The notes beneath the pieces were generated by a model. It did not search any database and was not told the DNA's origin. It saw nothing but the letters and a program-made list of their open reading frames with translations. DNA of 64,000 nt from Trypanosoma brucei. Taxonomy: Eukaryota. Each line of letters begins with the position of its first letter. The stretch's first letter is position 1. The stretch is from NCBI GenBank assembly GCA_000002445.1, contig CP000068.1, positions 1,472,001 to 1,536,000 on the forward strand, written 5' to 3'. Shown here one piece after another: positions 4,768 through 58,537 of this stretch. Position numbers and translations under genes: made by a program.

Positions 4768-4850
4768 TTAGCATGTATACTTTTACAACACATTCATATC
4801 AATATAATAATTACTGTTTCTGTTATAACCCTAACACTAATATCCACAGC
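4768..4850 (-). repeat. Degenerate single 70-bp repeat.
   Basis: 'gcatgtatacttttacaacacattcatatcaatataataattactg' is weakly similar to the 70-bp core. It is followed by the conserved cassette-boundary motif 'ataaccctaacactaatatcc...aaattataatagcactcattttt'. Confidence 0.45.
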
Positions 4851-24424: not shown

Positions 24425-25870
24425 AGCAAAAGAGATGCGTTAATCACAACTGTATTTATTCCTGTTGTATTTGTATGTTTACAATCATTCTCTACTCTCT
24501 TTCCATCTTTTCCATCTTTAGCCTTGCACCTGCCACTTTTGTCTGTTCCTTTCCATTCGCACATGGCGCCGGTATCGCACTCGGTTTTACCCTTTTTATC
24601 ACAGCTTGGTGAATGTTTTGTGGCGTTTTTTCATGTATCTGTGATTTCATATTTCTTCAACGCTGCCAGTGATTGTTTTGCTAGGTAGAAACCTATGGCT
24701 TGCTCGAGTTTTTTGATATATCTTATCTCTTTTATCTGAATGTCTTTTTCTCCGGACATCGCTTCAGCTGCAATGGCTACACGGTCTACCTGTGAACATA
24801 GCTGTTTATTCAGTTTGTCGTCTGAATCTCCATAAATTTCACCAATGTTTTGTGTTAGTACTGTTTTGTGCTTATCCGCATCCTTTTGTTTCCATTCTTT
24901 GATCTACGTTAGGCCAACAGCTTCTCTTAACGGCGGATTTGCTGTTAGATGGTGCGTCTGTTGACTATTGAATGCTGTCCTTATAGTTTTAAGGTTGACT
25001 TCCAGCGTGTGGAGCTTGCTTATTAGTTCGGCTGCTTTGGCGACTGGAGGTATTGACTAGCTAATGGTTGCCGGTGTTGTACTGTAGGCGCTAGCGAAGG
25101 TTGTCGGAGCTTTGTAACTCACCGCAGTTTGTTTGTAAATTTTGCCGCCTTTGACCATCAGATCGGTGAGCAACGATTTTGTCGTGCAGGTGGTTGGTAG
25201 CGTTGCACCTGTCGATTTTCAGAAAAGGTTTTCTCCCGTTTTTTAGGTTTCCGGTGTCGTGGTTTGTAGATAATACAGCGTTATTGCGGCCTCTGTGTCG
25301 AATGTCCGCGGTACGACTGCCTTGTTCTCACGCGGTGGATCGGTTGGTTGGCACGCCCTGTGTGCCTTTGCACCTGTTTTAAATTTAAGTGCGTACATAC
25401 CGCCGTTGAAAAAGGTGCTTACATCCGTCCCTGCCGCGCTTTCAAGCATCTTCGCCAGAAAATCACTGGTTAGCCTCTGTTGTCCCGCTATCTGCGCACA
25501 CGCCGCAACGTTGTCTAGTGAAGTGCGCAAACCGTTCCTCAACTCCTCTGCTGCTGCTGCTACCTCATCGCTTGGACCTGTCACTATTGGTGCCACAAGT
25601 TTTTTGATTTCAGTGCTTCCAGCTAAGGCCGCTAATAAAACTTGTTTTGTCTCTACGTTGACAGCCGCTCCATATTCGGTTGCTGGTTGTACTTTGTTTT
25701 TTTAGTTGTGTCAACATGTTGCGTACATAGTCGGCTGCTTCGCCAGAGTCTTTCATCTCTATTGTGACATTGTGCACGGGGGATGGAGACGGTACCGCGC
25801 TGAATGCGGTGACTTTTATGAGTAGAGCCGTAGATACGAGATTGATCATGTGCCAACCTGCTTCTTGTTA
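24425..25870 (-). pseudogene. VSG: VSG pseudogene with multiple frameshifts.
   Basis: The 3' end 'aatgcaagcaaaagagatgcgttaatcac...' is a VSG C-terminus read on the reverse strand. ORF 25243-25596 is a VSG N-domain fragment. ORF 25610-25849 'MINLVSTALLIKVTAFSAVPSP...' is a signal peptide. Confidence 0.7.
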
Positions 25871-42129: not shown

Positions 42130-43260
42130 TCAACAGTTGTATTCGTACAGAAAGGTTTTTCGGGGCTGCGTAGTCGGCTTAGTGGTGAGTGGTGTTGGCG
42201 GTCTGTTGATAGTCATGTTCAACCACGCGCACTCCTCCTCTGTAACGTGGTGAAAAACAATAACGTTAGGATTTTTTTCTACAAATTTGTCGAGCGGCCT
42301 TTTTACATGCATCACATAATGACAATCTTGCATATCCACTGTCAACAAACCATCAATTTTCATTTTATGCCTTAATACCTCCCCCACCATAATATTCTCG
42401 TTCAATACGGCATATTCAATATATTTCTCAAAGTTTAGAAAACTCACTCTGCCGGATAAAAGTTTGGAAATTTCCGAGAAGCCAGCTATTTCTTTTACAA
42501 CATCCCTTGAAATTGTATTTGCATACCCAACAACATACCACGTCAGTTTTCCAATATACTCGCCAAATTTACCCAACGCTCTTCCCATATTCAATTTCTC
42601 TCTTGGAAAAACCTCCAGATATTTTATATGCAGCGCCACCCTCATAAAAATATTATCATCTGCCTTCATAATATAAGGATTAGTTGGATTAAATATTTTA
42701 ACTGCGAATTTGAACCACAGATATGTTTTTCTACTCATCGTGAGTTCTGCTTCCCATCCCCAATTGCCCGCATCTCCAACTTTTTAATTTGTTGTTAGAT
42801 TCACATCGCAAACAGGTAAAATAATAATATCCTTATTTAACTCTGCCTCTTCTTCAGCGATTACTCTGAGCTCGCAATTGTTATTTGTATGAGGTAAAAG
42901 GGTATATACTACAGACAACTTCCCAGTAAAATTATTTACCTTCCTTGCCACTTTATGGAGACTCCAACAAGCTTCTTTCTGCAAGTTTCTCCTTATAAAT
43001 CTTTCATCATTATCTATTGAGGGTATTCCAGCTATAACCAAATAATCTTCAGTTTTCCAAATCCCCCTTACATCCTTAGAAACAAATTTCATATACTCAT
43101 CCTCAACAATTTCTAGTGAAATAGATTCACCATCACTAGACAAGCTGTATAGTGATCCACACAAACTGATGCCCATAACAATAAAAGATAAATAACCTAC
43201 TGTTGCATAAATACATATTTTATACCTTATAACTTACCATTATCATACTAATGAAAACTT
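42130..43260 (-). pseudogene. Glycosyltransferase pseudogene (UDP-Gal/UDP-GlcNAc-dependent, GT31/GT67-like family). It is frameshifted and its N-terminus is disrupted.
   Basis: ORF 42784-43176 has '...LVIAGIPSIDNDERFIRRNLQKEACW...', which resembles the galactosyltransferase N-terminal motif. ORF 42130-42738 has 'YLWFKFAVKIF...YIMKADDNIFMRV...', a DxD-type motif region. The two are in different frames. A TM-like 'YLSFIVMGISLCGSLYSL' follows a stop. Confidence 0.55.
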
Positions 43261-44074
43261 CGAACATCGTATGAAATCATAGAAGATATTAATATAATAT
43301 GTGAGCTTCATCATGACCTGAAATTGTTTGCGTCAACTTTCCAGTTTTAATTGTAATATATTTTGCTATTTGTCTACTTTTATTGCATATATCGTTTATG
43401 ATTGTTGTGTTATTCTAATGCAGCCCAGCTCCAGCTGCATGAATGCATCATAAGCAAAGATGTAACTCTAACTTTTCACCAGGAGTAATAACCTTGATTT
43501 CTTTTCACGTTATCATGCTTTATATTAGGCCGTTTTATCTTATTGCTCAAACTGTTTGACCCTCAAATAACTCTTTTGTTCTGTATTTTTTCGCTGCGCT
43601 TCGCAAGTATCGGGTCAGTGACCACTCTCTATATGAACTATTTGCTCCTTGAGAGGTCTTAGTGTGTGGAAAGTATACCAGTATGGAATTGGAGGAGTAT
43701 CGGCATTGATTCTATTCACTCCAGAGAGGTTTCACATCGGTTCATGTGCGTACTATTTCAAGTAGTTTCCGTGTTTTTCATCTTTTTTTTCCACAGTAAT
43801 ATATTAGTTGTCCTAGTTTTAAGATCTTTTTCTTGCATATTGTTTTATTTTTTCGCACAGATGTTGACCATATTTAATACATCTGATAAAAAAACGACTT
43901 CGACATCACTTCTCATTTAACCAATTTATTACTGCTTTTTTTCTTCAAAGATAAACAATAAGATTCTCCATAAGATTAAAAACCACAATAAGTTCCATTT
44001 TCGCAGTAGAAAGAATTAGAGTTTACTGCGAAATACGTGGAATTATCTCCTCTCGTATCATTTTCTTTTTTACC

Positions 44075-44400
44075 ATGCGTTTTTATATCCAGTTGCTACA
44101 CTATATTTTCTTTGCTTCTTTTTCGTGTTATGTACCTGTTTCTGTGCCTGAAATGGTAATTCCATTTGGTTCGCACACTGTACTTTGTCTTTCCCTCATA
44201 TGCTCCTCCATCATCTCCTTCGCATACGTTGATGATTCCCATTGTTGTGTTTGTGTTAGAAACTTAGTATATTCCATATTTCTCTCTGTGTTACCTCTAG
44301 AGACGCATTTAACACTTTTATCTTACCTGTTTGCTACTATTAAGCTTTTTCCATTGTGACAATTGTCTCTATGTTGTCCCTCAATTGATTCTTTACCACT
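44075..44400. repeat. Conserved cassette element distal to the 70-bp repeat.
   Basis: It has 'tccatttggttcgcacactgtacttt'. Confidence 0.5.
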
Positions 44401-44497
44401 TGTCTCATTATAATATTCGTATACACACTCACAACACTCTCCTATCATTATTATTATCATCATCATCAATATTTACTATTACTATATTATAATTTCC
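44400..44497 (-). repeat. Single 70-bp repeat.
   Basis: 'cattataatattcgtatacacactcacaacactctcctatcattattattatcatcatcatc'. Confidence 0.75.
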
Positions 44498-44718
44498 TAC
44501 AGCATCTGTAAAATCAACAAAATAGCAAAATATTTCAAAATATATTTAATTTGGACACCATATTACCAGCTCCTTTTCACTAATAGGCTACTTCCGTTAA
44601 AAAATTAAGAATTTCCAAAATCTTAAACATTTCGCAAAAGTTGAACAAAAACTGTCAAATTTCATAAATTTCACAAATTTTATGAATTTTACAAATATTC
44701 TTAGAATTCTCACAGTCC

Positions 44719-44875
44719 CTATAATTTTCTGAAATTCACAAAAGCAGAAACAATAAGAGCCAATTTCTTATTGACGAGGAAACTGAAATCTTTGCATTCT
44801 GTTCCTTCCCATTTGCAGTTTCCATTCTTTCTCCAATCAGCTGCTTTTTTAAATCCTTCGCATTCTTTGTTGGGG
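44719..44875 (-). pseudogene. VSG: VSG 3' stub, the last ~50 codons of the C-terminal domain plus the GPI signal.
   Basis: It encodes '...PNKECEGFKKAADWRKNGNCKWEGTECKDFSFLVNKKLALIVSAFVNF'. Unrelated GC-rich/A-rich sequence abuts its 5' side. Confidence 0.75.
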
Positions 44876-44884
44876 GATCGTGGC

Positions 44885-45740
44885 TGAAGCTGCATAAGCT
44901 TTGCCGGCTCTATAATGGTGCTCGCCACATCGGCGATGCTCCGGCGGGTGGAGTAAAAAATCTTTTATATCCGCCGTAGCGGAGCCTCCGGCTGATGCAA
45001 CCGAAAAAAAGAACAAAAAATGAATTCCAAAAATTTCAAAGGTTAAAAAAGGCCATAAAATGGGGAAAAACGCGGAAGCGAAAAAAAAACGGTAAAAAAC
45101 AAAAAATGATTTAAAGTAACGAAAAAAAATGTCGCCGTGGGGGCTAATAAAAAAATTACAAAACTCAAAAAAATTTTAAATTGAATGTGTAACAAAAAAA
45201 TGATTAAAAAATGGTGAAGTAAAAAACATTGAAATTCAAATTAAAAAACTCGAAATGTTTTTTAAAAATCAAGAATGTTAAAAAATTTTAACACTAAAAA
45301 AAATAAAATCAATAACAAAATTGAAAGCCGCTTGTAGAAAAGCCAAGACAAAAAACAAAAAAAACTCGATGACACAAGATATAAACAGCCAAAAAAACCG
45401 TAGAAATTTGTCAAAAAGAGGGGGGAATTGAGTCGGTGGCGTTGGTGAAAAAAAATGTCAAAAGTGTAAAAATCAAAAATTTCTCGAAAAGGAACACAAA
45501 AAAGAAAAATTAAACGCCGCTGCTAAGCTGCAGACTCATAGGGGTTAGGGTGCGCATAACAAAGCAGCCGTCGCTTCATTAAAATTTTGAAAAAGATCTA
45601 AAGCCGCGCTGTTTCGCTGCTAGAAAAAAAAATATTAGTATCAGGGGAAATAAACATAACCCTAAGCCTGGAAACCCTCCCTAATCTACCTACCAACTTC
45701 GTACCTCCCTACCCACCTCCTCTCCTGCCTCGCTGCACAA
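44885..45740. repeat. A-rich low-complexity block with GC-rich islands, ending in a degenerate telomere-hexamer tract (CCCTAA-like on +, about 45655-45735). It is paralogous to 54235-55325.
   Basis: Long A runs are interrupted by short GC words. It shares 'ggggttagggtgcgcataacaaagcagccg' with 'gggttagggtccgcataacaaaagagccgg' at 54950. The tract 'aaccctaagcctggaaaccctccctaatctacctacc...' lies immediately downstream (VSG sense) of the 3'UTR of VSG 45925-47543. Confidence 0.6.
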
Positions 45741-45841
45741 AAAATTCAAAAAGAAAAAAATGGAAAATATTCTTTTATTTGTTAGAAAAAAATTTACAGA
45801 ATCAGAAACTTACTACCAGCTAACACATACAATATCCTCGA

Positions 45842-45857
45842 CTGATTTTAGGTGTTA
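45842..45857 (-). promoter_or_regulatory. VSG 3'UTR 16-mer, a perfect match.
   Basis: 'gtgttaaaatatatca'. Confidence 0.7.
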
Positions 45858-45924
45858 AAATATATCAAATAGCAAGAATTTATCAAAAATTTTTTTAATA
45901 AAAAGAGAGGGGAAAAATTTGTTT

Positions 45925-47543
45925 TAGAAAAGCAAGGCCACAAAGGCAGCAGAAACCACGCTGAGGACGAATTGATTGTTTACTAGAAAACTGTAATCAT
46001 GGCATTTATAACCTGATTTGTCAGATCCATCAGTATTTTCTCCTTTCCAGCCACAAACTTTGGTAGTCTTACCTTCATTGGCCTTCTCACAGGTCGCCTG
46101 GTCTTTATGATCGGAGCATTTTACACCCTCGTCAGTTGATCCTGCAGTTTGAGTTTAGGTTACAGGGACGCCGTTTTTAGTGGCTTTGGTGGCATTGTAT
46201 TTCCACTTCTTATCTGTACTCTCTGTTTCATCATAAGTACAGAAATCCTTGGAATCGCAGGCATTTTTGTCCGCGTGGTGTGCTGCACACTCTTTCTGAG
46301 TCTGTGAGATTCTGTCGTCGGTTACTGACTTTGTTGCAAAATTTTTAATTTTGTCTTGCTGTTCAAGTAGCTCAAATGCCGCTTTTGCTTGGTAGTGAAG
46401 GAGTATTAACTCCAATTGCTTGGTATTAGTCTGAGAAATTAGCTTTGGGTCTTCTTGAGCTGTTGGGCTTACCAGCTCTTTGGGAATCGTCGCTGCTTGC
46501 ATCTCCTTCCATACTTTTTTGAGGCTGAGGTCTTTGTCGGTGGCGTAATGGTCTTTGATGGCGGCGTCTACCGTTGTTTGGTCTGTTTTCGCGTCGTAAT
46601 GTCCTGCTTGTTTTAAGAAAAAAATTTTGACGGCTCTTTTGAACTCTGTGGATGTCGTTATATCGGCGCTGTCTGGGTCGATCTTTTTTGCGGCAGTTAA
46701 AAGGCCGCTTGTTCTCCAGTTGTTCTGCGCGACCTGCGCTGCGTGCATGTCTTTTGGTGTCGTCCCTGCGTCTGCGGCGTCGAACGTCCCGAAGGGTGCG
46801 TGTTTGATCGAGTCGTCGCTTTGTATTAGTGTCAGGTACCCGGCTGCCATGGTTATATCCTTGTGGTTGCCGGCTGTTTCTACGAGACTGCCTGCCGCGG
46901 TTTTAAAGATGTTGCATGTGGGCGTGCCGGCCATCCGGGCCGCTGCTGAATGGTCGCTTGTGCTTGGTTTAAATAGCTTGTCTGGGTCGCCGCTATATGT
47001 TTTTGGATGTACTTTGCCTGTTGTGTCGGTTGCTAGTGCACATTGCGCCAGTGTGGTTGCCCCTTCTACTGTTGTTGTGCCTGCGATTTTCTCCAGGCAG
47101 CCGTGTGTGCCTGAGGTTGAGTAGCTGTCCGCTGCGATCGAGATGAATTCGGCTAGGCGTCCCCTTACGAAAGAAGTAGCTTGCGCTGCTGCCGGTGCCA
47201 TTTTAACGCCTTGAGTGGTTGTGTCAGTTGGCATTGCCGTTTTGGCCGCTATGCCCGCTATTAGTGGTAAAAGCTTCAGCCTCTTGGCCGGTTCCGCCTG
47301 GGAGGCGTAAATGCTTAGTTGAAGAGCGAGCTTTCGATTGTCTTCACTGTTTTCTAAGCTCTGCGCTAGGCTCTGTGACTGTTCGTTGAAGACCGCTGCT
47401 AGATTCGTTGTCATCTCACATATGGGCGTCCAAGTGCCGTGCGTTAACGCCTTGCCCGCGTTTCCGGTCGCCAGCGCTGATTGCACGAGCACGGATAACG
47501 CCATAAGGCCTAGCCGTAAGGTGAACTCTTGCTTACTTAGCAT
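45925..47543 (-). pseudogene. VSG: VSG, full length and co-linear, but with one in-frame TAA (at 46155-46157) about 66 codons before the natural stop.
   Basis: The 462-aa ORF has a B-type N-terminus 'HGTWTPICEMTTNLAAV'. After the TAA the same frame continues '*TQTAGSTDEGVKCSDHKDQATCEKANEGKTTKVCGWKGENTDGSDKSGYKCHDYSFLVNNQFVLSVVSAAFVALLF*'. Confidence 0.8.
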
Positions 47544-48179
47544 CGTTTGTATCTAGATGTTATACACTTGAAGTATTGTTGGGTCTGTCTGAATGGGTTG
47601 TAAGCTTCCACTTGCTTGGCAGTAGCCTTTTGGTCTCGCGTGTATTAAAGGATTCGAAGTTATGGTGCACACCTTTGGTTTGCACCGTTACTTCTGCTGT
47701 TTGATGATTTCCTTTTGGTTTTGCTGTGCCGAAAGAAACTCAATTCTTTTTTCAATGGAAACACCTTCAAAGCCGCTATTACCCTTACGCCTCCACTAGC
47801 TCCTTTGCCAAAAACCTCTCTACAATGCATATCATAACATTAAGGAAAAAATATAAAAAGAACCTGCTTCCAACACCACATCCCGCATTTCTGCCTTGGA
47901 ACCTATGTTTGCCTACTGCCATAACATTCAAAATGGAACGTTGATTCTATAAAACTACGCCCGTGGCCTTACGTTTTGTTAGCTGGATCAGACACCACAT
48001 TAAAACCACAAATGGTTCTATATCCGCTATTATATTTACCAATTATAAAGTAAAACAAGAAAATAATTATAGTATTTTCCTCTACTATTGAATTATTTTC
48101 ATTTGCATTGTCTGGTATTCTGTTATTTTACTCCGTATTTTTTTCTTTTTGTGTTTCCTCAACTGCAGATAGAATAGCG

Positions 48180-48395
48180 ACTGAATTTGGCTTACACACT
48201 GGGCTCTTTATCTACCTTATATTTCCTTTAAAACCATTTTGTATGGTGATGTAGATTCATTTATTTTCGAAACTGCACACATAACATACCCATCTCTCTC
48301 GCTGTCCCTACTCCTTTCCCTCGTTTACTCCTATTGCGTCTTTGATATTCTGTCAACTGCTTCTCCTTTAGCTGTGCATTTAGTCTTCCACACAA
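48180..48395. repeat. Conserved cassette element distal to the 70-bp repeat.
   Basis: It has 'tttggcttacacactgggctcttt' and 'ttagctgtgcatttagtcttcc'. Confidence 0.5.
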
Positions 48396-48548
48396 TTTTA
48401 GTATACACACTCACAACACTCTCTTATCATTATCATGATTATTATTATTATTTGTGTTGTTATTACAGCTCTCATTAATATATTAGTATATACACACGCG
48501 CAACACACTCCTATAATTTTTATAATATTTATTCACTGATATTGTTGT
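48395..48548 (-). repeat. 70-bp repeats, about two divergent units.
   Basis: 'tatacacactcacaacactctcttatcattatcatgattattattattatt...attaatatattagtatatacacacgcgcaacacactcc'. Confidence 0.7.
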
Positions 48549-48763
48549 TATAACCGTAATTAATATTCATAAAATAAGTTAAGTTAGTTTTTTTATAATA
48601 TCATTCATTTTTAATACCCTGTCACTTTACTTCTACTTTGGAACCGTAGGCTATTACCATACACAATTTAAAAATTTCATTTTTTTTAAAAATTTGTACA
48701 TTTTCATCGAAAAGTTTTAAAGTGTATTTTAAATTATACAAAATTTTATAGGTTTCATGGATT

Positions 48764-50365
48764 TTATAAAATTAAGCAAAAATCCTTATAATTCTCAAAT
48801 GCTACCAAACCCACAAAAGCAGCAGAAACCACGCTGAAAGCGATTTTCTTATCGGGGAGAAAACTGGAATCATGGCACATTTCTTTTTCGGGCTCAGGTT
48901 CACCACCATTACCCTTCCTCCATGCACAATTTTGCTTGTCGCCTGTTTTGTCATTTTCACAAGCGAGTTTATCTTTGTGCGCTGTACACCTATTTGTAGC
49001 TGCTGCTTCCCCTGCTTGGTTTCCTGTTGTTTCTGCTGTGTTTTCCTTTACTGGTTTAGGTTTGCAACTGTTACCATCTGTGGCCTTCTCATCATACTCG
49101 CAGTGCTCGGTTGGGCATTCGGTGGGGGTTGTATTTTGCGGTTTGCATTTCCCCTCTTCTGCTTGCTGGGTTCTGCGGTCGAGTGTAGGGGGTGCTGGAG
49201 GAAATTCTGTTAGTGCCGGCTGGCGCCCAAGAACTTTCAGAGCTGCTATTTGTTGCCGCGCCTCTGCCTGCAGTAGGTGCACTGCCCTGTTGTGTTTGTT
49301 GACCTTGCCGATGTCATTGCTGAGGTTGATGATCTTGCTTACCCATGGAAGCTGCTTGAATTTAGTGTCATCATCTGATGTCAGACCGCTTATTTTTACA
49401 CAGAAACCGTTTGCGTTGTGGCCTTGGCAGTTCCCTGTCTTGAATGTTCTTAGGTAGCCGTTGCCGCTGTTTATGCTGATAGTTGAGTAAATGTCTCTTA
49501 GTGTATTTACCAGCAATTCGGGTGTGACCGTTGTGTCTTGCATCGCTGGACAGCCGTCGATTAGTGCCTTTACGTCTGTCATCTGTGGGCCGCCGGTTGC
49601 CGCTTCCCATTGGATTGCTGCGCCCGAGTGGTCGCAAATCTGATCGCCTGTTTGACCGTTACCTTTGATACACAGGCAGGCAAAGACGGCGCCTATAGTC
49701 GCCGCACCATTTGTGTTGTCTTTCGCTTCGCATGTTGTTTGCATGTTGGCTGCGGCCGCTGTTGCAAATAGGTTGTCTTTTATCGGTAACGTCAGGACAC
49801 CGTCCGCTGCTCCCGTTATCGCTGCTACTAGCTCTTTCTTTATGTCTTCCTTCGTGACCTGTTTGGTGTTTGTGATGTCATCCGCCAGTGCTGCTGCTTT
49901 TGCGTTCACTATCACTAGTGCTCGTTCGACAAATGTTTTGATGTACTTGGCGTTCGCTGGTGCTGCTGTTTGCAGATTAAACCTTTTCATTGTGCTCTTA
50001 TCTGTGTCTGCTTTTGCTAGTTTTGCTGCTTGCAGCCATCTGCCCCAGTTGTCTGACCATCCCGGGTTCGATTTCAGCTGGGTGGGTATCTCCGCTATGT
50101 CGTCTTTGTCGTTGCCGTCTTTGAAGAAGAGGTCCAACCACGTGGGATCGGAAAGCGTGGCGTTTATAGTTTCTAGGTCCGTCAGCTCCTGCGGCGTTAC
50201 TGGTAGTTGTGCTTCTGGTGCCGTCGGATTTCTTGCTAACCCTACAAATGTGCACAGTTTCTTGTAAACATAGCTGTTGTCAGCCGAACCTACATTGCCC
50301 TGGACGTTAGAAACTACGACCATCAGCTCGAAAAAAGCTAATTTGGCGGCGCTGTTTTGTTTCAT
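48764..50365 (-). CDS. VSG: Variant surface glycoprotein, an intact 533-aa ORF with an A-type N-domain and an atypical C-terminal extension.
   Basis: It has a signal peptide and 'SYVYKKLCTFVGLARN'. The C-terminus reads '...CHDSSFLPDKKIAFSVVSAAFVGLVAFENYKDFCLIL*', about 10 residues longer than the usual tail ending in ...LLF or ...VAF. The 16-mer region is degenerate ('agtgtattttaaattata'). Confidence 0.82.
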   Translation of the reverse strand: MKQNSAAKLAFFELMVVVSNVQGNVGSADNSYVYKKLCTFVGLARNPTAPEAQLPVTPQELTDLETINATLSDPTWLDLFFKDGNDKDDIAEIPTQLKSNPGWSDNWGRWLQAAKLAKADTDKSTMKRFNLQTAAPANAKYIKTFVERALVIVNAKAAALADDITNTKQVTKEDIKKELVAAITGAADGVLTLPIKDNLFATAAAANMQTTCEAKDNTNGAATIGAVFACLCIKGNGQTGDQICDHSGAAIQWEAATGGPQMTDVKALIDGCPAMQDTTVTPELLVNTLRDIYSTISINSGNGYLRTFKTGNCQGHNANGFCVKISGLTSDDDTKFKQLPWVSKIINLSNDIGKVNKHNRAVHLLQAEARQQIAALKVLGRQPALTEFPPAPPTLDRRTQQAEEGKCKPQNTTPTECPTEHCEYDEKATDGNSCKPKPVKENTAETTGNQAGEAAATNRCTAHKDKLACENDKTGDKQNCAWRKGNGGEPEPEKEMCHDSSFLPDKKIAFSVVSAAFVGLVAFENYKDFCLIL

Positions 50366-51124
50366 CGCTTGGCTGCGACGGTGTTTTTATTCGGGAGTTG
50401 CAGGTCCAACGGCTGAATTTGTTGAGTTTTGCTAGTTGTGTGTCGGCTCCAGCGCTGCTCTTAATATCTGGGGTTTTGTGCTAGCTTGCCTGCTGCAGTT
50501 GCTTTTTTTCTAATTATAATATGCCTTTTTTTCTGTTTGTACCTTGCTGTGTTGGTGCTGTAAGGTCGTGCGGCAGCCTCTTTGGATGGTCTTTATTATT
50601 CTTTTTGCCATTTTGTAGTTTTTGAAAAGTTAACTAGCCTATATGCCGAGCGTAAAGGGTGCTTGATCGTGGATTTGACGTCGTGCTGTGCAACCACGTG
50701 GTAATCAAATAAAAGCGCGGTCAGCTGAGCAGTCTTAGAAGCTTTTCATGGTTTGAAAACCGCTGCTTAGTCTAGTTTTTCTAGAATTGGGTATAAATGT
50801 CTTACAGTAAGCATCTTCTACTTTAGACGAGTCAAATTGAAGCTATAACGTCACTAAAAGGGCCGCAACTAGTTACTGATCTATCAGCGTTTACGGACAC
50901 ATTTTTTTTCTGATGCTTTATTACACAGTACGACAAAGACGTGCCGCCGCTTTTGCGGTCAGTTGCTCAGTCGTACTTTTCTCCTGCTTGTGTCTGTAGA
51001 CAATAGCGGAAATAAATATGTTAAATACAGGAACTTTAAACATGGCTTGTCTACATATCGCTCACTTTAACTGTATAAACATATGGCTACCATGACTTAA
51101 ACTCTTTTTTTACAATTTTCCATT

Positions 51125-52156
51125 TTAAATTCTAACATATATATATATATATATATATGTCTGTTGTATATATAATATGTGGCTCCGTTTTATCGTCATC
51201 CCGTTGTACCTGCTCCTGCGATAGTGCCGAGTACATAGTCGTGGTTGGTCTGGGTACAGTCTTTGTGCGTGAGCGGCGCTGCTATGATAGTTGGCTCCGG
51301 CGCCAGCGATGCTTAGTTTACTGTTGGCGCTATTGCTCCTTGAGAACAAGCTGCCTTTAGTTTGTTGCACTATTATTTAAAGTTAACCGCTCCTGCACTG
51401 ATAGATTTGCCGGAGTTTCCGGTTTCCGCATAGTCGCCGCAGCAAGCTTTGCCACCACTTGTATCGGGTACACCTTTGTTGACGCATAGAAAAATCGCAT
51501 CCTGTAGCAAGTTGCTGCCAGGTTTGGTTTCCGTCGTGCGTGAGGTCTGCAAGCACAATTTGGTTCTGTCCCTCCAGCACCCTCCGAAGGTTAGGTGGAA
51601 ACTTTTTGAGCTTGCTGCTGTGTTTCCATGGACTGCTTTGTTCAGCACTGCAGTTACTGCTGTTGGTTCTAACTGAGCTTTAAGCCCTTGAATTTCGTCG
51701 TTTAAGCTAAGTACTTGCTGCGCTAGTTGCGCTACCCGAGCTTGCGCTACCGACATCCCCTTGTGCTTTAGACATGGTGCGCACACAGCCTTGTTAGCAC
51801 CTGAAAGTTCCTGTTTCCTCTTTACCCAGGTGTCATGGAAGTTGTCCCATCCTTTACTGTTGCTTTGCAATCAGTATTCGCTGAATCTCACGGTTTCGTG
51901 ACTTCTATTCTATTGGTGAACGCATTGTCACTTACTTTCAGATTGATTGCTGAAACTGTCCTCAAGATAGAGTCCACTTCGGCCGATTGCTGTAATTGCC
52001 TAGGTCTAACGGTTGCAAGCCTGATGACTTCACACAGGGCGCAAATGCTGCATTGTTCTCGCTTGCTGCCGAGTTAGCTGTGGTTTTGCCTACGCTAGCA
52101 ATGATTACTGCCGCACAAAATTTCGCTTGCATATTGTTTACTGTGGAAGAACACAA
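51125..52156 (-). pseudogene. VSG: VSG N-terminal-domain-only fragment (A-type), frameshifted and lacking the C-terminal half.
   Basis: ORF 51962-52156 has the signal 'MQAKFCAAVIIASVGKTTA...AAFAPCVKSSGLQP'. ORF 51373-51870 has '...GWDNFHDTWVKRKQEL...LSLNDEIQGLKAQLE...AIFLCVNKG...GKACCGDYAE', which parallels the A-type VSG N-domain layout (compare VSG 20939-22540). Confidence 0.55.
51137..51160. repeat. (AT)12 microsatellite.
   Basis: 'atatatatatatatatatatatat'. Confidence 0.9.
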
Positions 52157-53496
52157 AGAACTTATTCAAGAGTAATTTAAGGTCGAGCTATAAAACAATG
52201 AGGTATTTATTTTTACAAATTTAGGTTTTTATAGCCTTTTCGACATCAATTTAAAAAATGTATTTTTTGTAAACAGAGACTGCCAAATAATGTTGTTTCT
52301 GAAGGATTTAGTGTAAATGGAGATAAATGCCTGACACATTAAAATGTGCAAATTACGATAATAAATCATTGTATTTTTCATATGTTAAAATTGTGAAAAT
52401 ATTGGTTTTACACACATTGATCAATGAATATCATTACATAAATTTTGTTTTTCGAGAAATTTATACTTTTACTTACAATTTAAATTGGTCTATTTATACA
52501 CAATCTATGTTCTTCATTTATACCTTCAGTCCGTTAGCTCTAGAAAATAACGTGCATATTTCTAGAACTGAAAATTTTAAGGTTATGCTTTTAAGTGCTT
52601 TTTTTTCGTGATAATTATTCAACATGTACTGGTGAAATAACCATTTAGCACCGCTATTTCGTCACGGTGGCTGTTAGGCTCCTGTTTATTATCTTTATTC
52701 TGGCTTTTTGGTGGCTGCTTTCGCTATCCTTGTACGCTGCAATTTTTTTAATTATCCCTATTAAATAAGGTTTGCTCTGGGTATTAATATTTATCCCTGG
52801 ATCAGTGAATTTCGTTAATTTCTCACCTGTATTCCAGTGTTAAACTGATACATTTTTAATGTTAATTATAAACTTCATTGAGGGTCTCTAAAACTTTATA
52901 TATGTGTTATTTTACGAAGATTACACGTTCTTGTTTTTTTGTTGTTCACAGTAATCCATTAGTTGTCCTTGATTTAAAATAATTCTTCCAATAATATTAT
53001 ATTGTTTCCAACAAATACTGTCCGTTATTGCTTGATATAATGAGAATATTACTTACATATTACCTTATCCATTCCTACTGTTGTCCTTCTGGTTTCTCTT
53101 GTTCACAGCTGGACATTAGGATCCTCCAATAAATTAAAAGCCGCAATAGTTATAACATCTGGAGTAAAATCAATTCATTTTTTTGAGAAAAATATCTGTC
53201 TCTCCAGTGTAAACAGTAGAAGCCTCCGTTTCTTCTGAAAATCCTCTGCTATTCCAGCCTTCAACAACTTTTCTGCTATATCAGGTACAAACATTGCTGT
53301 TTGTCTTTCTGACCCTTTTCTCCCACGTATTTCTTCTCTGTCCAGAGCTGCTGTAGATACAGTGCTTTTATTTCCTTTTATACGTTTAGTGATTTCTACA
53401 TGCATCCTTATAGTTTATGTCGCCACAATTTCAACTCTCGTTTCAGGACAGCTATCACTGTCCATTCAAAAGGCTATATGCACTCACAACGCACTT

Positions 53497-53795
<299 letters not shown>

Positions 53796-54094
53796 ATGGG
53801 AAATAAAAATAAATTAATATATTACTCATTTTAATATACAATCACCCCACTGGTGTACACACATGCCTCTGTCATACCAAAGTTTTACAAGTGAAGTTTT
53901 TCAAAATTTTCAATGAATTGCACAACTTGCAAAGGGTTGACAAAAAGTGTTATAATATATCATATTTAAAAAACATTTAAATTTTTTTTCAAAATAGCAA
54001 TTTTTATAAATTTTTATAAGTCTCATAAACTTGAGAAAAAGCTTTTACAAATGATTCGTAAAACTTTTATGCTAGAAGAAAAATTACAAGCAAA

Positions 54095-54235
54095 AAAGAG
54101 GTCTTAATTAGAACAGAATTTATTCTTGAGTTTTTGTAGGGTTTCTATCATTTCCACCAGTTTGCGCTTCTTTTCCTACTTCCTTCTTGATTTCCTCACT
54201 TAATGTGCACATTTTTCCCTAGACGGCTTTTAGGT
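54095..54235 (-). pseudogene. VSG: VSG 3' stub, about 45 C-terminal codons, degenerate.
   Basis: The reverse complement encodes '...GKMCTLSEEIKKEVGKEAQTGGNDRNPTKTQE*'. A VSG-type 3'UTR with the near-perfect 16-mer 'gtgttataatatatca' lies at 53937-53952. Confidence 0.6.
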
Positions 54236-55325
54236 TAAAAACGTACCTCCGGAAGTTGAGCACCCTTGGCCGGGGTGTGCCAGCGTCAGATGGCGCTGCC
54301 GAAGTTTAATTGCTAATTATAATTATCAGCTGTTCCCCAATATGAGTATTTTTAAATTTATTTCCTCTTTAAAAGCAAATCGTTTCCCGCAGCGAAAGTG
54401 CCACGCGGCAGCGTTTTTGAAAAAAAAAAATTTGCTAGCCGCGTGCACCGCAAAACGCAAAGCTGAAATTCACGAAAGTAAAATAAACATAGGCGTAACG
54501 ATGTGAAGCTGAAAATAAAAAGAAAAAAGAAGCGCGGATAGCTCCAGTGGAAATAAGTGCCAGCCTTGTGCTTAAATAAAAAAAAAGAGCTGCATCACTA
54601 AAAAAATACAAATTTTTTTAGTGATATGAAGCAATCCAGGACGGAGGTGTGGAAAAAAAATTAATTAGCAGTCAGAGGAAAATTAACCCGATAACCCGAA
54701 ACACTCTAACCCTAACCCTGACCCTGACCCGAACCCGCTAACCCGAAACAGCCTGACCCGAAACACCCGCGCAAAAATGGGCAAAGAAAAAGTTGAGTGC
54801 TAAAACAAAAAAATTTAAAAAATCAAATCGCAAAAAAAAAATAAAAAAATCAAAATAAAAAACCAAAAACCGCGCAAAAACCGAAAATTAAAAGAAAAGA
54901 TTAAAAAAAATTTAAAAAATTGGAGCTTCGCGGGGTCGTGGGGGGGGGGAGGAGGGTTAGGGTCCGCATAACAAAAGAGCCGGTGCACGACTAAAGAAAA
55001 AAAAATTTAAAAAAACACAAAAAAATAAATTAAAAGCCAGCGCAACACAAAACTGCCGCTGCATCACTAATATGAAAAAAAGAAATTAAACGTCAGTGAA
55101 AAAAAGGAGGATCTGCTGCATCACTAAAAGAAAAAACTAAAACAATCCGCGATGGAGGTGTGAGTTGAAAAAAAAATTAATTAGCAGGAAGAGAGAAAAA
55201 TTAACCCTAACCGAGTAACCCTAAGCCTAATCCTAATCCTAACCCTAACCCTAACCCTAACTAACTAACCTAACCTAATTAACCACCCCCCCCATTCCTA
55301 CCTACCCCCCCCCCCACTTCCACAA
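54235..55325. repeat. A-rich low-complexity block containing an internal ~520-bp tandem duplication and two degenerate telomere-hexamer tracts (CCCTAA/CCCTGA on +, about 54700-54775 and 55205-55320). It is paralogous to 44885-45740.
   Basis: 'gctgcatcacta' occurs three times (54588, 55058, 55116). Each copy is followed by '...ggaggtgtg(g/a)...aaaaattaattagcag...aaaattaaccc' and then by 'taaccctaaccctgaccctgacccgaacccgctaacccg' in the first unit or 'taaccctaagcctaatcctaatcctaaccctaaccctaaccctaactaac' in the second. G-runs lie at 54930 and C-runs at 55290-55315. Confidence 0.65.
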
Positions 55326-55435
55326 AAAAAAACGGGAAAAGAAGGGAAAAAATTTTAAGTTATCAGAAAAAATTTCTAGACAATCAGACAGTCAACTTAC
55401 AAAAAACAGCTCAATTTTTTCGGCGGAATTTAAAA

Positions 55436-55451
55436 GTGTTAAAATATATCA
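55436..55451 (-). promoter_or_regulatory. VSG 3'UTR 16-mer, a perfect match.
   Basis: 'gtgttaaaatatatca'. Confidence 0.7.
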
Positions 55452-55508
55452 GAAAGTTTTTCAAGGAGCAAATTTTTAGCAAATTTCTTTTAAAAAGAGG
55501 GGAGGGAT

Positions 55509-56969
55509 TTAAAAAAGCAAAAATGCAAGCAAAAGAGGGGCCTTGTTAATGACAAAAGAATTGCTTCCTGTGGTGTTTGTGTTTCCAGTTTTGCTATCTT
55601 TCTCTCCTCCCTCTTTCTGAGCTGCTTCTTTCTCTTCATCACTCAATGTGCACTTTTTGCCATCCTCTTTCGTTTTATCATAAGTGCATCTGTTATTCGT
55701 GTCACAATCACTTTTTTCTTTCAAGTCGTTACAAGTTTGTTCTGCGGATTTTACATCCTGTTGCTTTTCAGTTGCTTGTGCTTGTAACTTAGCAACTTGG
55801 TCCGCCATTTGTTGCTTGTGTTTCACCTCCAGTATTTTGTAAAAAGCCAAAGTTACTTGTAAGATGCCAGCATCGTTTATTTCTTTGATTTTCGTATTGG
55901 TAGTGGCGCTTGGATCGACGTTGATCGCGTCTGCCTCATCTAGCTTGTTCAAAAAGCTTTTCACCTTTTCACCAGCCTCTCCAAAGTTCTCCTTGATTAG
56001 CACTTCGGCTTTGTCCTCCGCTTGTTTGCCGGCTTGTTTGCCGTACAGCTTGTGAAGTAGTTTCGTTAGGTGTCCTTTGAGTTTGCCCGTTGTTACTGCT
56101 GCTTTGATTATCGCTTCTGGTTCATGTGCGAGCTGCTGCGTTATGGCCGCCCTTATCGTGTCTGCGTCATTGAAAGCGAGCGTTAGGAGGTCGTCTGCAT
56201 CTCTGTTGGTTTGCTTTTTCAGGTTCTGCTGGCTCGTCCGTGTCACCCGGTTTGTTGTGGCTATTTTGAATAGCCCATATCCAAAGTTTACGGCCGTGGC
56301 TCCGGTTACGAAGGCTCCTGTGCCTGCACCTGCGAAGTTGACTAGCCCGCACTTGGTTGACACACTGGTTGCCATCCCGTTAGTTCCGGTGATTTCGTCG
56401 ATAGTCTTGAATCCAGTCGCGCTGATTATATCGGCGTCTAACGTTTCGCTTGGGGTTTTCTTCATAGTTTTTGGTCTCTGCTCGCAGCCAGCTGTTGCTA
56501 TGTCGGCTGTCTTGTCCTCGTCGGTGTCGGTGTCTGCTAGACAGTATCCTCCGCTGTGCTTCGCGCTTTTGAATACCTGGAGGCTTGCTTCAATGCCGCC
56601 GGTTAGCTCCTGAGTCGTCGCAGTTGCTTCGAGTGCTGTCTTGATGAAGTTGCTTCTCTGCCGTTCGCTTGCGTCCGCTTCTTCGTAAATGGCTGCGGCT
56701 GCTGCTGATAGCAGTGCCGTCGTTTCGACGTCGGACTGCGTAGTTGCCGCGTACAGGTTTAACTTCGCCGCTGTTCGCTCTGCTGCTGTTATCGCGTCCT
56801 GCAGGTTGCTTTCGTGTGTGTACGCCATTACTGGGACTTTCCGCAGTTCTTTGGCTATCGCACACGGTGGTTTCCACGTTTTGCCAAGCAATGGTTCGCC
56901 GGTCGCTGAGGCCGTGTTGGCTGCCCACTTCGTCATTAGTATCATTAGAGCTGTCGTGGCAACGGACAT
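55509..56969 (-). CDS. VSG: Variant surface glycoprotein, an intact 486-aa ORF with a B-type N-domain.
   Basis: It has a signal peptide, 'GKTWKPPCAIAKELRKV', and the C-terminus '...CNDLKEKSDCDTNNRCTYDKTKEDGKKCTLSDEE...TGNTNTTGSNSFVINKAPLLLAFLLF*'. Confidence 0.88.
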   Translation of the reverse strand: MSVATTALMILMTKWAANTASATGEPLLGKTWKPPCAIAKELRKVPVMAYTHESNLQDAITAAERTAAKLNLYAATTQSDVETTALLSAAAAAIYEEADASERQRSNFIKTALEATATTQELTGGIEASLQVFKSAKHSGGYCLADTDTDEDKTADIATAGCEQRPKTMKKTPSETLDADIISATGFKTIDEITGTNGMATSVSTKCGLVNFAGAGTGAFVTGATAVNFGYGLFKIATTNRVTRTSQQNLKKQTNRDADDLLTLAFNDADTIRAAITQQLAHEPEAIIKAAVTTGKLKGHLTKLLHKLYGKQAGKQAEDKAEVLIKENFGEAGEKVKSFLNKLDEADAINVDPSATTNTKIKEINDAGILQVTLAFYKILEVKHKQQMADQVAKLQAQATEKQQDVKSAEQTCNDLKEKSDCDTNNRCTYDKTKEDGKKCTLSDEEKEAAQKEGGEKDSKTGNTNTTGSNSFVINKAPLLLAFLLF

Positions 56970-58537
56970 ATTGCCTTAGTTTTTTTAACCTGCAGCCGTT
57001 TTGTCCTCTTTACTGTCTCAGATGTGCCAACCTTATTGTAACACGATATAAATTTGGATTTTAGGAAGACCGTCACAACTGATGCCGATTTGTTTGGTAA
57101 TCAAGGTGTTTTTTTGCCAAAGCGGAACAGTTTCTTACAACGCCTTGCATTGCAGAAATACTTTATGCTGTTAAACAGTTAACGCCTGTACGAAAAAAAC
57201 TATGATATAGTATTTTCTTCGGTAAGCTGTCGAGGAAGCTGTTTCATCAGATAAATGTCAAAACGCCAAAAAAATATTAACAAGAAAGGAGCTTATTAGA
57301 AACAGCAAATTTAACGCTTGAAAAGGTTGTGCTGAAAGTGAATCGAGCCTTACAGGAGGAAAAAACACTATTTTGTTATTTAAAAAAAGTAGATCAACAA
57401 TATTTTTAGTTGTGTACTGTAAAACCCTTTTTGACGTATTTTCTTCCAATCGAGGTGTCGCGAACCTGCATGGCATCAGTATCTAAAAAAAAAATGTATT
57501 TTTGACTTCTCAAAAAATACCAATATATTTTGTCGTTGAATGAATTCGTTTCAATGGAGAAAAACAACAGGATCATTAGATCATGTAAATTATCACTATA
57601 AATGATTTTTTTAATTTGTTCAACCTACGAAAAGGTTGGTTTCCCCATATAATCCCATGGCAACCATGACGAATTTCGACCTTAAATTTTTTGACGAAAC
57701 ACAGTTTACTTTCAATTCTAATATCTTTCTGTGTTCATATCTGTTGCACCTCTTCTCCACCTTAGAAACTTCGCCACGGGCCGTCTTGAAGACTCTTTTT
57801 ATATTTATATATATGAAACACCTAAGGTTTTCGTTCCTCGGCGGTTTCTATCGTTTCCCAATTTGCAGCAGGTGGCTCGGTTTAGAATCCCAAGAAAAAG
57901 ATACTTCTGTATTTTTCCATGTGGCTTACCTTTTGCTTTTTGTTTCTATGATATTTATGCGTTTTGAGATTACGGCGTTTAAGGGCTCATACCTTGGTTC
58001 CTTAAAGCTCTGTCTTCTCTGATCTTTTTTTGTTAAAGCGTCATGTTAGACACGAATAAGAAACACCTCTTCTGTTAATTACTCGTTTCTTGAAGGGCCT
58101 TAATGACAGAATAGCATACCAAAACTTGAGTCTAAGAATATCGCTAGTGGTTCTTGCTACCCCAAAGATACATTTAAATTTTTCATACACGCGGTTTCTT
58201 ATTCTTTTCTTCTTGCCTTCTACTTGCACTTTAGTTAGCACAATCTCGTGTTGTTGTCGGTGTAGAAAGCGTAGAAGTTACATTTTTTCCCGGTGTCCTT
58301 GTGCACCTTGTTATGATCGCAACTTAAGACTCTTTGGTATTATGACGCCTAGCTTTTACTAAGGTTCACAATGAGTATATATTTCATCTCCACCGCTTTT
58401 TATATTACAGTGGCCCATTTAATAACAATAAAACCGTACTCAGTGTCACACTTACTCACTACTACAGAGCCATTTCCACTGTTTTAAGAGCTTATAGCGC
58501 CTGTAAACTCACTTTTGACAACCACTCCTGTTATAAT

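What the first reader, a model, noticed from the sequence alone, without database searches (positions are those of the whole stretch)
54095..55509. Second copy of the A-rich/telomere-like block, with an internal ~520-bp tandem duplication and oppositely oriented telomere hexamers
The block 54235-55325 contains two tandem units, each of the form 'gctgcatcacta...ggaggtgtg...aaaaattaattagcag...aaaattaaccc' followed by a CCCTAA/CCCTGA tract. It also has a G-rich word 'gggggggggaggagggttagggtccgcataacaaaagagccgg' in which the telomere hexamer is in the opposite (TTAGGG on +) orientation. The same 'gggttagggtgcgcataacaaagcagccg' word occurs in the first block at 45545. Inverted telomere-like words plus a tandem duplication suggest repeated breakage and healing or slippage at an internalised telomere. 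Like the first copy, it is flanked by an intact VSG (55509-56969) on one side and a VSG 3' stub (54095-54235) on the other.
Basis: seen in the sequence. Interest (0 to 1): 0.68.

Follow-up and report, generated by a model that had tools for sequence, protein, structure and literature searches.

The report
Fossil telomere-side flank inside VSG array
This is a leftover of the DNA that normally lies between a chromosome-end surface-antigen (VSG) gene and the telomere of Trypanosoma brucei, now buried inside a silent VSG array; it records how the array was built but is not a new kind of element.

Summary
The window is a Trypanosoma brucei TREU927 VSG array; the VSG at 55509-56969(-) is 100% identical to XP_845141.1. 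The described features are present. Two ~170-bp modules (54578-54747 and 55099-55260) align at 71-76% identity (z=20). Each ends in a degenerate CCCTAA tract. The 22-mer GGGTTAGGGTSCGCATAACAAA occurs only at 54954 and 45542. The ~335 bp between the modules is not duplicated, so this is a two-copy module spaced 520 bp, not a 520-bp tandem unit. In gene sense the tracts read TTAGGG and begin about 190-220 nt after the VSG stop. That is the polarity and position of the 'TTAGGG-like repeats 3' of telomere-proximal VSGs' reported in the literature. The two block-bearing VSGs are unrelated, yet their 3' flanks are homologous (z=15) and share a variant-repeat 13-mer. Neither flank matches the seven ordinary array-type flanks in the window. 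Each block ends abruptly at a ~130-155-bp VSG C-terminal stub with an ordinary flank and 70-bp repeat. Best reading: an inherited, telomere-type VSG 3' flank that became internal. It does not look like scars of repeated local breakage and healing. No trypanosome DNA outside the window could be reached, so homology to real chromosome ends is untested. Interest is modest.

The parts
55509..56969 (-). Intact a-type VSG ('VSG-A', 486 aa), whose 3' flank is the block
   Evidence: ORF. Pfam PF00913 E=2.6e-83. 100% identical to XP_845141.1 of T. b. brucei TREU927 on a 1,608,198-bp contig.
55326..55508 (-). VSG-A 3'UTR and proximal flank, with the conserved VSG 16-mer TGATATATTTTAACAC at 55436-55451
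   Evidence: 16-mer match. Distal to the 16-mer it is homologous only to the block-1 flank.
55285..55325 (-). G-run/TAGG-rich segment in gene sense (C-rich on +) that leads into the hexamer tract
   Evidence: Sequence. Aligned to the block-1 counterpart.
55197..55284 (-). Tract B: about 14 TTAGGG-like hexamers in gene sense (5 perfect; variants TTAGGA, TTAGGC, TTAGG, TTAG)
   Evidence: (period 6, 9.7 copies). The variant 13-mer is shared with block 1.
55099..55196 (.). Unit B, non-telomeric part (GCTGCATCACTAA ... GGAGGTGTG ... AAATTAATTAGCAG ... AAAATTAACCC)
55041..55098 (.). Extra partial copy of the unit head (CGCAACACAAAACTGCCGCTGCATCACTAA)
   Evidence: 23/30 match to 54965-54994 and 21/31 match to 55108-55138. 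Motif hits.
54925..54994 (.). ~70-bp GC island containing G10, AGGAGG and the inverted hexamer word GGGTTAGGGTCCGCATAACAAA (54954-54975)
   Evidence: Homologous to 45542-45602 (z=4.6). Complementary to the C-run/tract at 55274-55317, but with no excess fold stability.
54776..54924 (.). A-rich spacer (53% A on +; T-rich in gene sense)
54680..54775 (-). Tract A: a more degenerate TTAGGG-like tract (variants TCAGGG, TTCGGG; 15-bp sub-repeat TAACCCGAAACAC/GCC, three copies)
   Evidence: (period 15).
54578..54679 (.). Unit A, non-telomeric part. It carries a perfect 14-bp-arm palindrome (54594-54625) that is absent from unit B.
   Evidence: I13.
54251..54577 (.). Distal unique segment ('Z'), moderately GC-rich. 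It has no similarity to VSG coding sequence, to the spacer or to the distal part of block 1.
54095..54250 (-). VSG C-terminal stub (degenerate ...GKMCTLSEEIKKE...), joined abruptly to the block
   Evidence: Translation. Homology to other VSG 3' ends stops at ~54247-54250. tblastn 54162-54242.
53722..54094 (-). Ordinary array-type 3' flank of the stub, with the 16-mer variant at 53947-53962
   Evidence: Homologous to other array flanks (z up to 12.9) but not to the block flanks (z<=1.6).
53498..53721 (-). 70-bp-repeat region of the next cassette, including a pure (TAT)58 run
45650..45923 (-). Block 1: telomere-type 3' flank of an unrelated VSG pseudogene (16-mer at 45852; G-rich and TTAGGG-like tract at 45650-45744)
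   Evidence: The two VSGs are unrelated.
45506..45649 (.). Block 1: third, shorter copy of the unit (45592-45649) and a ~73-bp GC island with GGGTTAGGGTGCGCATAACAAA (45542-45563)
44875..45505 (.). Block 1: A-rich region and unique GC-rich distal end
44740..44874 (-). Block 1: VSG C-terminal stub (...CEGFKKAADWRKNGNCKWEGTECKDFSFLVNKKLALIVSAFVNF), followed by an array-type flank and a 70-bp repeat at 44403-44442

Best explanation
The block is a fossil 'telomere-type' VSG 3' flank. This is the spacer that separates a chromosome-end VSG from the (TTAGGG)n array in T. brucei. It begins with a G-rich run and TTAGGG-like degenerate repeats about 200 nt after the stop codon.

The flank was inherited together with VSG-A and now lies inside a silent array, because more VSG cassettes lie beyond it. 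The ~170-bp module (non-telomeric unit plus degenerate tract) and the GC island with the inverted hexamer are conserved building blocks of this flank family. There are three module copies in the window. Block 2 carries an old extra copy, most simply produced by unequal recombination or slippage between TTAGGG-like tracts.

The distal end of the flank is fused to the last ~150 bp of another VSG, which keeps its own ordinary array-type flank and 70-bp repeat. Two routes could give that join (inference):
- A former chromosome end was extended by break-induced copying that started inside another VSG's 3' end.
- A telomeric cassette, including its flank, was copied into the array and resolved in the resident VSG's 3' end.

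Shown: the anatomy, the polarity, the distances, the two flank classes and the shared variants. Inferred: that this flank class is the one found at real telomeres, and the route of internalisation.
For: 1. Organism and context. This is a T. brucei TREU927 VSG array. All VSG-like segments are on the minus strand.
2. Polarity and position. The tracts read TTAGGG in gene sense. The G-run starts ~187 nt (block 2) and ~180 nt (block 1) after the stop codon, and the hexamers at ~220-235 nt. Hertz-Fowler 2008 (PMC2567434) gives a VSG-to-telomere distance of 200-1590 nt in expression sites. [quoted passage not shown]
3. Two flank classes. For the 200 nt distal to the 16-mer, block 1 vs block 2 gives z=15. 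Against the 7 other flanks z<=2.5. Those 7 match each other with median z 7.4. The two VSGs themselves are unrelated.
4. Inheritance rather than local origin. The variant 13-mer TAACCCTAAGCCT, the conserved 22-mer and its island and a third unit copy in block 1 are all shared.
5. Uniqueness. These are the only two A-rich regions (AT skew >0.3) in 64 kb. 14 of 15 double-hexamer matches lie in them.
6. Junctions. There are sharp junctions to VSG C-terminal stubs that carry array-type flanks and 70-bp repeats.
Against: - No bona fide telomeric VSG flank (expression-site, minichromosome or the Aline & Stuart sequences) could be compared. No trypanosome DNA outside the window was reachable. 'Telomere-type' therefore rests on polarity, distance and one literature sentence.
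- Conserved non-telomeric sequence lies distal to each tract, so the tracts were never the start of a terminal array in their present form.
- No perfect TTAGGG array remains at the distal junctions (54251, 44875).
- The direction of the present telomere relative to the window is unknown.
- The two distal segments are unrelated to each other.
Confidence: 0.6

Rival explanations
1. First reader's model. A true telomere became internal here. The inverted hexamer word and the duplicated units are scars of repeated local breakage, telomerase healing and slippage at this site.
For: Telomere-like hexamers occur in both orientations. A two-copy module is present. A perfect palindrome occurs only in unit A, which looks like a template-switch event. 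The G-rich island is complementary to the C-run/tract 312-356 nt away.
Against: The inverted word is embedded in non-telomeric sequence conserved between two loci 9.4 kb apart that sit behind unrelated VSGs. The tract variants are shared between loci. The units are only 71-76% identical, so any duplication is old. The inverted hexamer is only 1.5 repeats long and lies 90-225 bp from the tract, so it is not an abutting head-to-head array. There is no excess fold-back stability.
Confidence: 0.12
2. The blocks are just one more family of inter-VSG spacer in arrays and were never associated with chromosome ends. The hexamers are simple-sequence drift in an A/C-rich low-complexity region.
For: Both copies are internal. 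The sequence is low-complexity (53% A). No terminal array remains.
Against: Double-hexamer matches are concentrated 14 of 15 in the blocks, against 3.1 expected window-wide. There is a run of three perfect CCCTAA repeats, two further perfect ones and many one-off variants. Polarity and distance from the stop codon are correct in both copies. The literature places TTAGGG-like repeats 3' of telomere-proximal VSGs.
Confidence: 0.12
3. Assembly artefact: telomeric clone or read sequence was wrongly joined into the array assembly at the stub junctions.
For: There are abrupt junctions at ~54250 and ~44875. VSG arrays are hard to assemble.
Against: Two independent blocks share the same architecture. 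Both are followed by coherent stub, flank and 70-bp cassette structure. No terminal perfect repeat array is present, as a mis-joined telomere read would carry. Reads could not be examined.
Confidence: 0.03
4. The A-rich part is the remnant of a retroposon poly(A) tail or another mobile-element insertion behind the VSG.
For: The + strand is strongly A-rich over ~0.7-1 kb.
Against: There are no ORF or coding similarities and no Rfam match. The A-rich DNA is interrupted by conserved GC islands and hexamer tracts rather than forming a 3' tail. The same arrangement lies directly after the 3'UTR in two places. Trypanosome retroelement sequences could not be searched.
Confidence: 0.04

Closest known systems
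3' flank of telomere-proximal T. brucei VSGs (Aline & Stuart 1989, Exp Parasitol 68:57; quoted by Hall et al. [quoted passage not shown]
   Same: It lies directly after the VSG 3'UTR. The TTAGGG-like degenerate repeats have the G-strand in gene sense. Their distance from the VSG is at the short end of the 200-1590 nt measured in expression sites (PMC2567434). The organisation is conserved behind unrelated VSGs.
   Different: It does not run into a terminal (TTAGGG)n array. It ends at a VSG C-terminal stub and further array cassettes. Sequence identity to the published telomeric flanks could not be tested.
Interstitial telomeric sequences and subtelomeric patchworks (yeast X/Y' junction TG1-3 tracts; human subtelomeric block boundaries)
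   Same: Short degenerate telomere tracts, in telomere polarity, mark the boundaries between duplicated subtelomeric modules. They are relics of past chromosome ends or of end-to-subtelomere recombination. (Comparison from general knowledge.)
   Different: Here the modules are VSG cassettes. The tract is part of a conserved gene flank rather than a bare healing scar.
T. brucei minichromosome subtelomere (Weiden et al. 1991, Mol Cell Biol 11:3823). As I recall the abstract: telomere repeat, 29-bp telomere-derived repeat, then 74-bp G+C-rich repeats separated by ~155 bp of bent A+T-rich DNA.
   Same: ~70-73-bp GC islands (54925-54994; 45506-45578) sit next to ~150-bp A-rich stretches. A telomere-derived 15-bp sub-repeat (two copies = 30 bp) lies in tract A.
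   Different: This is a resemblance from memory only, because the paper was not retrievable. No significant A-tract phasing was found. A VSG is present here, whereas those telomeres lacked genes.
Conserved non-coding elements CNE3/CNE4 downstream of telomeric VSGs in T. congolense (Abbas et al. 2018, PMC6152948)
   Same: These are conserved non-coding elements, one with an AT-rich motif. They lie between a telomeric VSG and the telomere, in a fixed orientation.
   Different: Different species and unrelated sequence. Those elements are described at real chromosome ends.

Membership tests
Telomere-proximal VSG 3' flank (Aline & Stuart organisation) | Lies immediately 3' of a VSG, after a 3'UTR carrying the conserved 16-mer | tested here: met
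   16-mer at 55436-55451 and 45852-45867. The VSGs are confirmed.
Telomere-proximal VSG 3' flank (Aline & Stuart organisation) | TTAGGG-like repeats with the G-strand in gene sense, a few hundred nt from the VSG | tested here: met
   Tracts at 55197-55284 and 45650-45700 read TTAGGG on the minus (gene) strand, 190-235 nt from the stop codon. The published range is 200-1590 nt.
Telomere-proximal VSG 3' flank (Aline & Stuart organisation) | Continues into the terminal (TTAGGG)n array at a chromosome end | tested here: not met
   The block ends at a VSG stub (54250; 44874), and further cassettes follow. It is therefore a relic, not a current telomeric flank.
Telomere-proximal VSG 3' flank (Aline & Stuart organisation) | Sequence homology to flanks of bona fide telomeric VSGs (expression sites, minichromosomes) | not testable with these tools
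   No trypanosome DNA outside the window could be fetched.
Ordinary array-type VSG 3' flank | Homology distal to the 16-mer with other array flanks, leading into a 70-bp repeat | tested here: not met
   Block flanks against 7 array flanks give z<=2.5. Array flanks against each other give median z 7.4. The stub's own flank does belong to this class.
Tandem duplication with a ~520-bp unit | The whole period, unit plus spacer, is present twice head-to-tail | tested here: not met
   Only ~170 bp is repeated (z=20). Spacer 54776-55109 against 54248-54588 gives z=1.0. TRF finds no such array.
De novo telomere healing scar / short inserted interstitial telomeric sequence | Repeats were added in situ at a break, so their variant pattern is private to the locus | tested here: not met
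   The variant 13-mer TAACCCTAAGCCT is shared by tract B and block 1. A CCGA irregularity is shared by units A and B.
Head-to-head telomere fusion | Inverted arrays (TTAGGG)n(CCCTAA)n abut each other | tested here: not met
   The inverted word is 1.5 repeats long. It lies 90-225 bp from the tract, separated by conserved non-telomeric sequence.
Minichromosome-type subtelomere (Weiden 1991) | ~74-bp GC-rich repeats separated by ~155 bp of bent A+T-rich DNA | tested here: inconclusive
   The sizes resemble this (70-73-bp islands; a 149-bp A-rich spacer). A-tract phasing is not significant (p=0.15-0.88).
Known structured RNA | Match to an Rfam family | tested here: not met
   No match with E<=0.1 in 43000-58000.

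The most novel reading that the evidence does not exclude
The telomere-type 3' flank may still work as a recombination handle. It would give this array VSG downstream homology to the region behind the VSG in active expression sites. With the upstream 70-bp repeat, the whole gene could then be copied in without borrowing the resident 3' end, and it would be activated unusually early for an array gene.

Circumstantial support comes from the expressed-VSG clones. The gene is 99% identical to eight expressed-VSG cDNA clones. By elimination it is probably Tb927.5.5080, the only intact, non-mosaic, A-type chromosome-5 donor in Hall 2013 Table S1. That table lists it as Set_19, with a day-10 ('d10') label in a 3'-donor row, and as one of only 3 of 18 array sets with no 3' donation.

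A related structural reading is that each flank-plus-stub junction marks a former chromosome end. In that case VSG arrays would grow by terminal capture of further cassettes.
Probability: 0.15. Interest if true: 0.6.

Novelty: new member of a known kind. Interest (0 to 1): 0.33.

Why it matters
VSG arrays are the archive behind trypanosome antigenic variation, and how they are assembled and used is only partly understood.

- Internal copies of the telomere-type flank, each fused to a VSG 3' stub, are datable footprints of exchanges between chromosome ends and arrays.
- A genome-wide census of such footprints would show how often telomeric cassettes become internal, or how often arrays grow from their ends.
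- The same census could test whether flank type helps set the order in which silent VSGs are activated.

On its own, this locus is an expected kind of subtelomeric relic.

Tried and rejected
- **Fetching related loci.** Exact-protein look-ups found no contig for VSG-A, its 99% relative, the TREU927 RefSeq protein or a second VSG. Pattern scans of metagenome and prokaryote genome collections for the 22-mer gave 0 hits. Those collections are not expected to hold trypanosome DNA, so this does not test whether the word marks a family.
- **Literature.** Marcello & Barry 2007 and Weiden 1991 are not held. Searches for interstitial or telomere-like repeats in VSG arrays found nothing specific to T. 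brucei.
- **Full 520-bp tandem unit.** Rejected.
- **VSG-coding origin of the distal segments.** No tblastx support.
- **Homology between the two distal segments.** None.
- **Structured RNA.** No Rfam match.
- **Fold-back structure between the inverted hexamer island and the tract.** The MFE pairs them, but z is 0.0 and 0.6.
- **Intrinsic bending by phased A-tracts.** Not significant.
- **Other telomere-like sites.** The single CCCTAA near 4829 sits in AT-rich sequence ~240 nt beyond the VSG at 5066-6112 and is read as chance.
- **A possible third stub at 24439-24876.** It is part of a longer degenerate VSG pseudogene.
Full report
**Context**

The window is a silent VSG array of Trypanosoma brucei brucei TREU927. 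The ORF at 55509-56969(-) is an a-type VSG (Pfam PF00913, E=2.6e-83). It is 100% identical to XP_845141.1/AAZ11582.1, which sits on a 1,608,198-bp contig. By size this is chromosome 5; that assignment is my inference.

All VSG-like segments are on the minus strand. Cassettes are punctuated by 70-bp repeats, including ten 75-bp copies at 1255-2015. They also carry the conserved VSG 3'UTR 16-mer TGATATATTTTAACAC (9 sites, 0.09 expected). The finding therefore lies downstream, in gene sense, of an intact VSG. Everything below is easiest to read on the minus strand.

**Checking the observation**

The described words are all present.
- GCTGCATCACTAA is at 54589, 55058 and 55115.
- GGAGGTGTG is at 54643 and 55154.
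- AAATTAATTAGCAG is at 54658 and 55174.
- Each unit is followed by a CCCTAA-like tract.

The two units align 54578-54747 against 55099-55260.
- Identity is 71.4% over 182 columns, and the same value outside homopolymers.
- The score is 58.5 against 13.9+-2.2 for dinucleotide-preserving shuffles, z=20.
- The ungapped-rich core is 76% over 126 columns.

The ~335 bp between the units (54776-55109) has no counterpart in the ~340 bp before unit A (z=1.0). What exists is therefore a two-copy ~170-bp module at a 520-bp offset. It is not a 520-bp tandem unit.

Other checks on the observation:
- The 22-mer GGGTTAGGGTSCGCATAACAAA occurs only at 45542 and 54954 (0 expected).
- Telomere-like double hexamers are concentrated in the two blocks, 14 of 15 matches against 3.1 expected for the whole window.
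- These are the only two regions in 64 kb with AT skew above 0.3.

**Anatomy in gene sense (block 2)**

| Coordinates | Feature |
|---|---|
| 56969->55509 | VSG-A |
| to ~55326 | 3'UTR, with the 16-mer at 55451-55436 |
| 55325->55285 | G-run and TAGG-rich segment |
| 55284->55197 | Tract B, about 14 TTAGGG-like hexamers |
| 55196->55099 | Unit B |
| 55098->55041 | Partial extra unit head |
| 55040->54995 | Short T-rich stretch |
| 54994->54925 | ~70-bp GC island; in this sense it reads ...TTTGTTATGCGGACCCTAACCCTCCTCCCCCCCCCC |
| 54924->54776 | 149-bp T-rich spacer |
| 54775->54680 | Tract A, more degenerate, with TCAGGG/TTCGGG variants and a 15-bp sub-repeat |
| 54679->54578 | Unit A |
| 54577->54251 | Unique segment Z |
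| 54250->54095 | VSG C-terminal stub (...GKMCTLSEEIKKE...) |
| to 53722 | The stub's own 3' flank, with a 16-mer variant at 53962-53947 |
| 53721->53498 | 70-bp repeat region of the next cassette |

Supporting calls are 1, 12, 27, 35, 36, 51 and 59.

Block 1 has the same order in a shorter form. It runs VSG pseudogene (stop at 45924), 3'UTR, G-rich segment and tract (45744-45650), and a short unit copy (45649-45592). These are followed by a ~73-bp GC island with the 22-mer, T-rich DNA, a unique GC-rich end, and a stub (44874-44740). Last come an array-type flank and a 70-bp repeat at 44442-44403.

**What kind of DNA it is**

Three results bear on this.

1. Polarity and position. The tracts read TTAGGG on the VSG sense strand, which is the polarity of a telomere lying beyond a telomeric VSG. 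The G-run begins about 180-187 nt after the stop codon and the hexamers at about 220-235 nt, in both blocks. In Lister 427 expression sites the VSG-to-telomere distance is 200-1590 nt (PMC2567434). Hall et al. [quoted passage not shown]

2. Two flank classes. The two block-bearing VSGs are unrelated (26% over 92 aa). Even so, their flanks align from the stop codon through the tract (alignment A3). For the 200 nt distal to the 16-mer the local alignment z is 15. Neither flank resembles any of the seven other 16-mer-bearing flanks (z<=2.5). Those seven, including the flank of stub 2, resemble one another (median z 7.4). The array therefore holds two discrete classes of VSG 3' flank.

3. Descent of the degenerate tracts. 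The variant 13-mer TAACCCTAAGCCT is found only in tract B and in block 1. Units A and B share a CCGA irregularity at the start of their tracts. The inverted-hexamer word sits in a ~60-bp island conserved between blocks (z=4.6). Block 1 holds a third copy of the unit (z=5-6).

**Interpretation**

These facts fit an inherited telomere-type flank family, whose TTAGGG-like zone lies proximal to the true telomere. They fit less well with a telomere that decayed in place, or with repeated local breakage and healing. Conserved non-telomeric sequence lies distal to each tract, so in their present form the tracts were never the start of a terminal array.

The extra module in block 2 is old, at 71-76% identity. 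It is most simply explained by unequal recombination or slippage between TTAGGG-like tracts. It could also have been present already in the donor flank.

Unit A alone carries a perfect palindrome, ATCACTAAAAAAAT/ATTTTTTTAGTGAT, at 54594-54625. This looks like a later template-switch event.

**How it became internal (inference)**

Each block ends abruptly at the last ~130-155 bp of another VSG, which keeps an ordinary array-type flank and 70-bp repeat. Two routes would give this.
- VSG-A once sat at a chromosome end. The end lost its terminal repeats and was extended by break-induced copying that began inside another VSG's 3' end, adding cassettes distally.
- A telomeric cassette, including its flank, was copied into the array and resolved in the resident VSG's 3' end.

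I cannot separate these routes. The parental sequences, the direction of the present telomere and other strains were all out of reach. The distal segments (Z, and 44875-45140) are unrelated to each other, to VSG coding sequence and to the rest of the block.

**What the block is not**

- No Rfam family matches.
- There is no excess single-strand fold stability, although the island and the tract are trivially complementary.
- There is no significant A-tract phasing.
- It has no coding potential.
- It is not a head-to-head fusion. The inverted word is only 1.5 repeats long and lies 90-225 bp from the tract.

**Limits**

No trypanosome DNA outside the window could be retrieved. The key primary papers are not held. 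The central claim is that this flank class is the one found at real chromosome ends. It rests on polarity, distance, the two-class result and one literature statement.

The resemblance to the minichromosome subtelomere of Weiden et al. 1991 (~74-bp GC-rich repeats, ~155-bp A+T-rich spacers, telomere-derived repeats) comes from my memory of the abstract. It is a lead, not a test.

**A lead worth following**

The eight 99%-identical sequences in the VSG-A cluster are expressed-VSG clones (AGQ49972 and others). By elimination the gene is probably Tb927.5.5080. That is the only intact, non-mosaic, A-type chromosome-5 donor in Hall 2013 Table S1.

The table lists it as Set_19. A 3'-donor row labels Set_19 'd10', which I read as day 10. 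Set_19 is one of only 3 of 18 array sets with no 3' donation. That is what one would expect if the telomere-type flank supplies downstream homology to the expression site. This is circumstantial and untested.

**Verdict**

It is wrong that the inverted word and the repeat point to repeated local healing. The object is a new example of a known kind of sequence in an unusual, internal position, and its interest is modest.

Noticed in passing
window 54594-54625: A perfect 14-bp-arm palindrome (ATCACTAAAAAAAT ACAA ATTTTTTTAGTGAT) is present in unit A. It is absent from unit B and from the 55058 copy. It looks like a template-switch or hairpin insertion that arose after the module was duplicated.
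   Followed up: partly
window 55509-56969: This intact VSG is 99% identical to eight expressed-VSG clones (AGQ49972 and others) and to ABQ52447.1. By elimination it is probably Tb927.5.5080, which is Set_19 in Hall 2013 Table S1. That entry is an array donor with a day-10 ('d10') label and no 3' donation.
   Followed up: partly
window 53498-53673: A pure (TAT)58 run of 176 bp at 100% identity lies within the 70-bp-repeat region of the next cassette. This is unusually long and perfect for the triplet part of a 70-bp repeat.
   Followed up: no
window 1255-2015: Ten tandem 75-bp '70-bp repeats' (94% matches) lie here. Every other cassette in the window has only a fraction of one repeat to about two.
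   Followed up: no
window 19088-20338 (+): A 416-aa ATG ORF lies on the strand opposite to all VSGs and has no Pfam match. It may be spurious or an unannotated non-VSG gene.
   Followed up: partly
window 45924-47543: The VSG upstream of block 1 has its C-terminal domain (45924-46157) in a different frame from the 462-aa N-terminal ORF. It is therefore a frameshifted pseudogene, not an intact gene.
   Followed up: partly
window 54692-54768: Tract A contains a 15-bp sub-repeat, TAACCCGAAACA(C/G)(C/T)C, three times. Two copies make 30 bp, which recalls the '29-bp telomere-derived repeat' described for T. brucei subtelomeres. The comparison is from memory and is untested.
   Followed up: no
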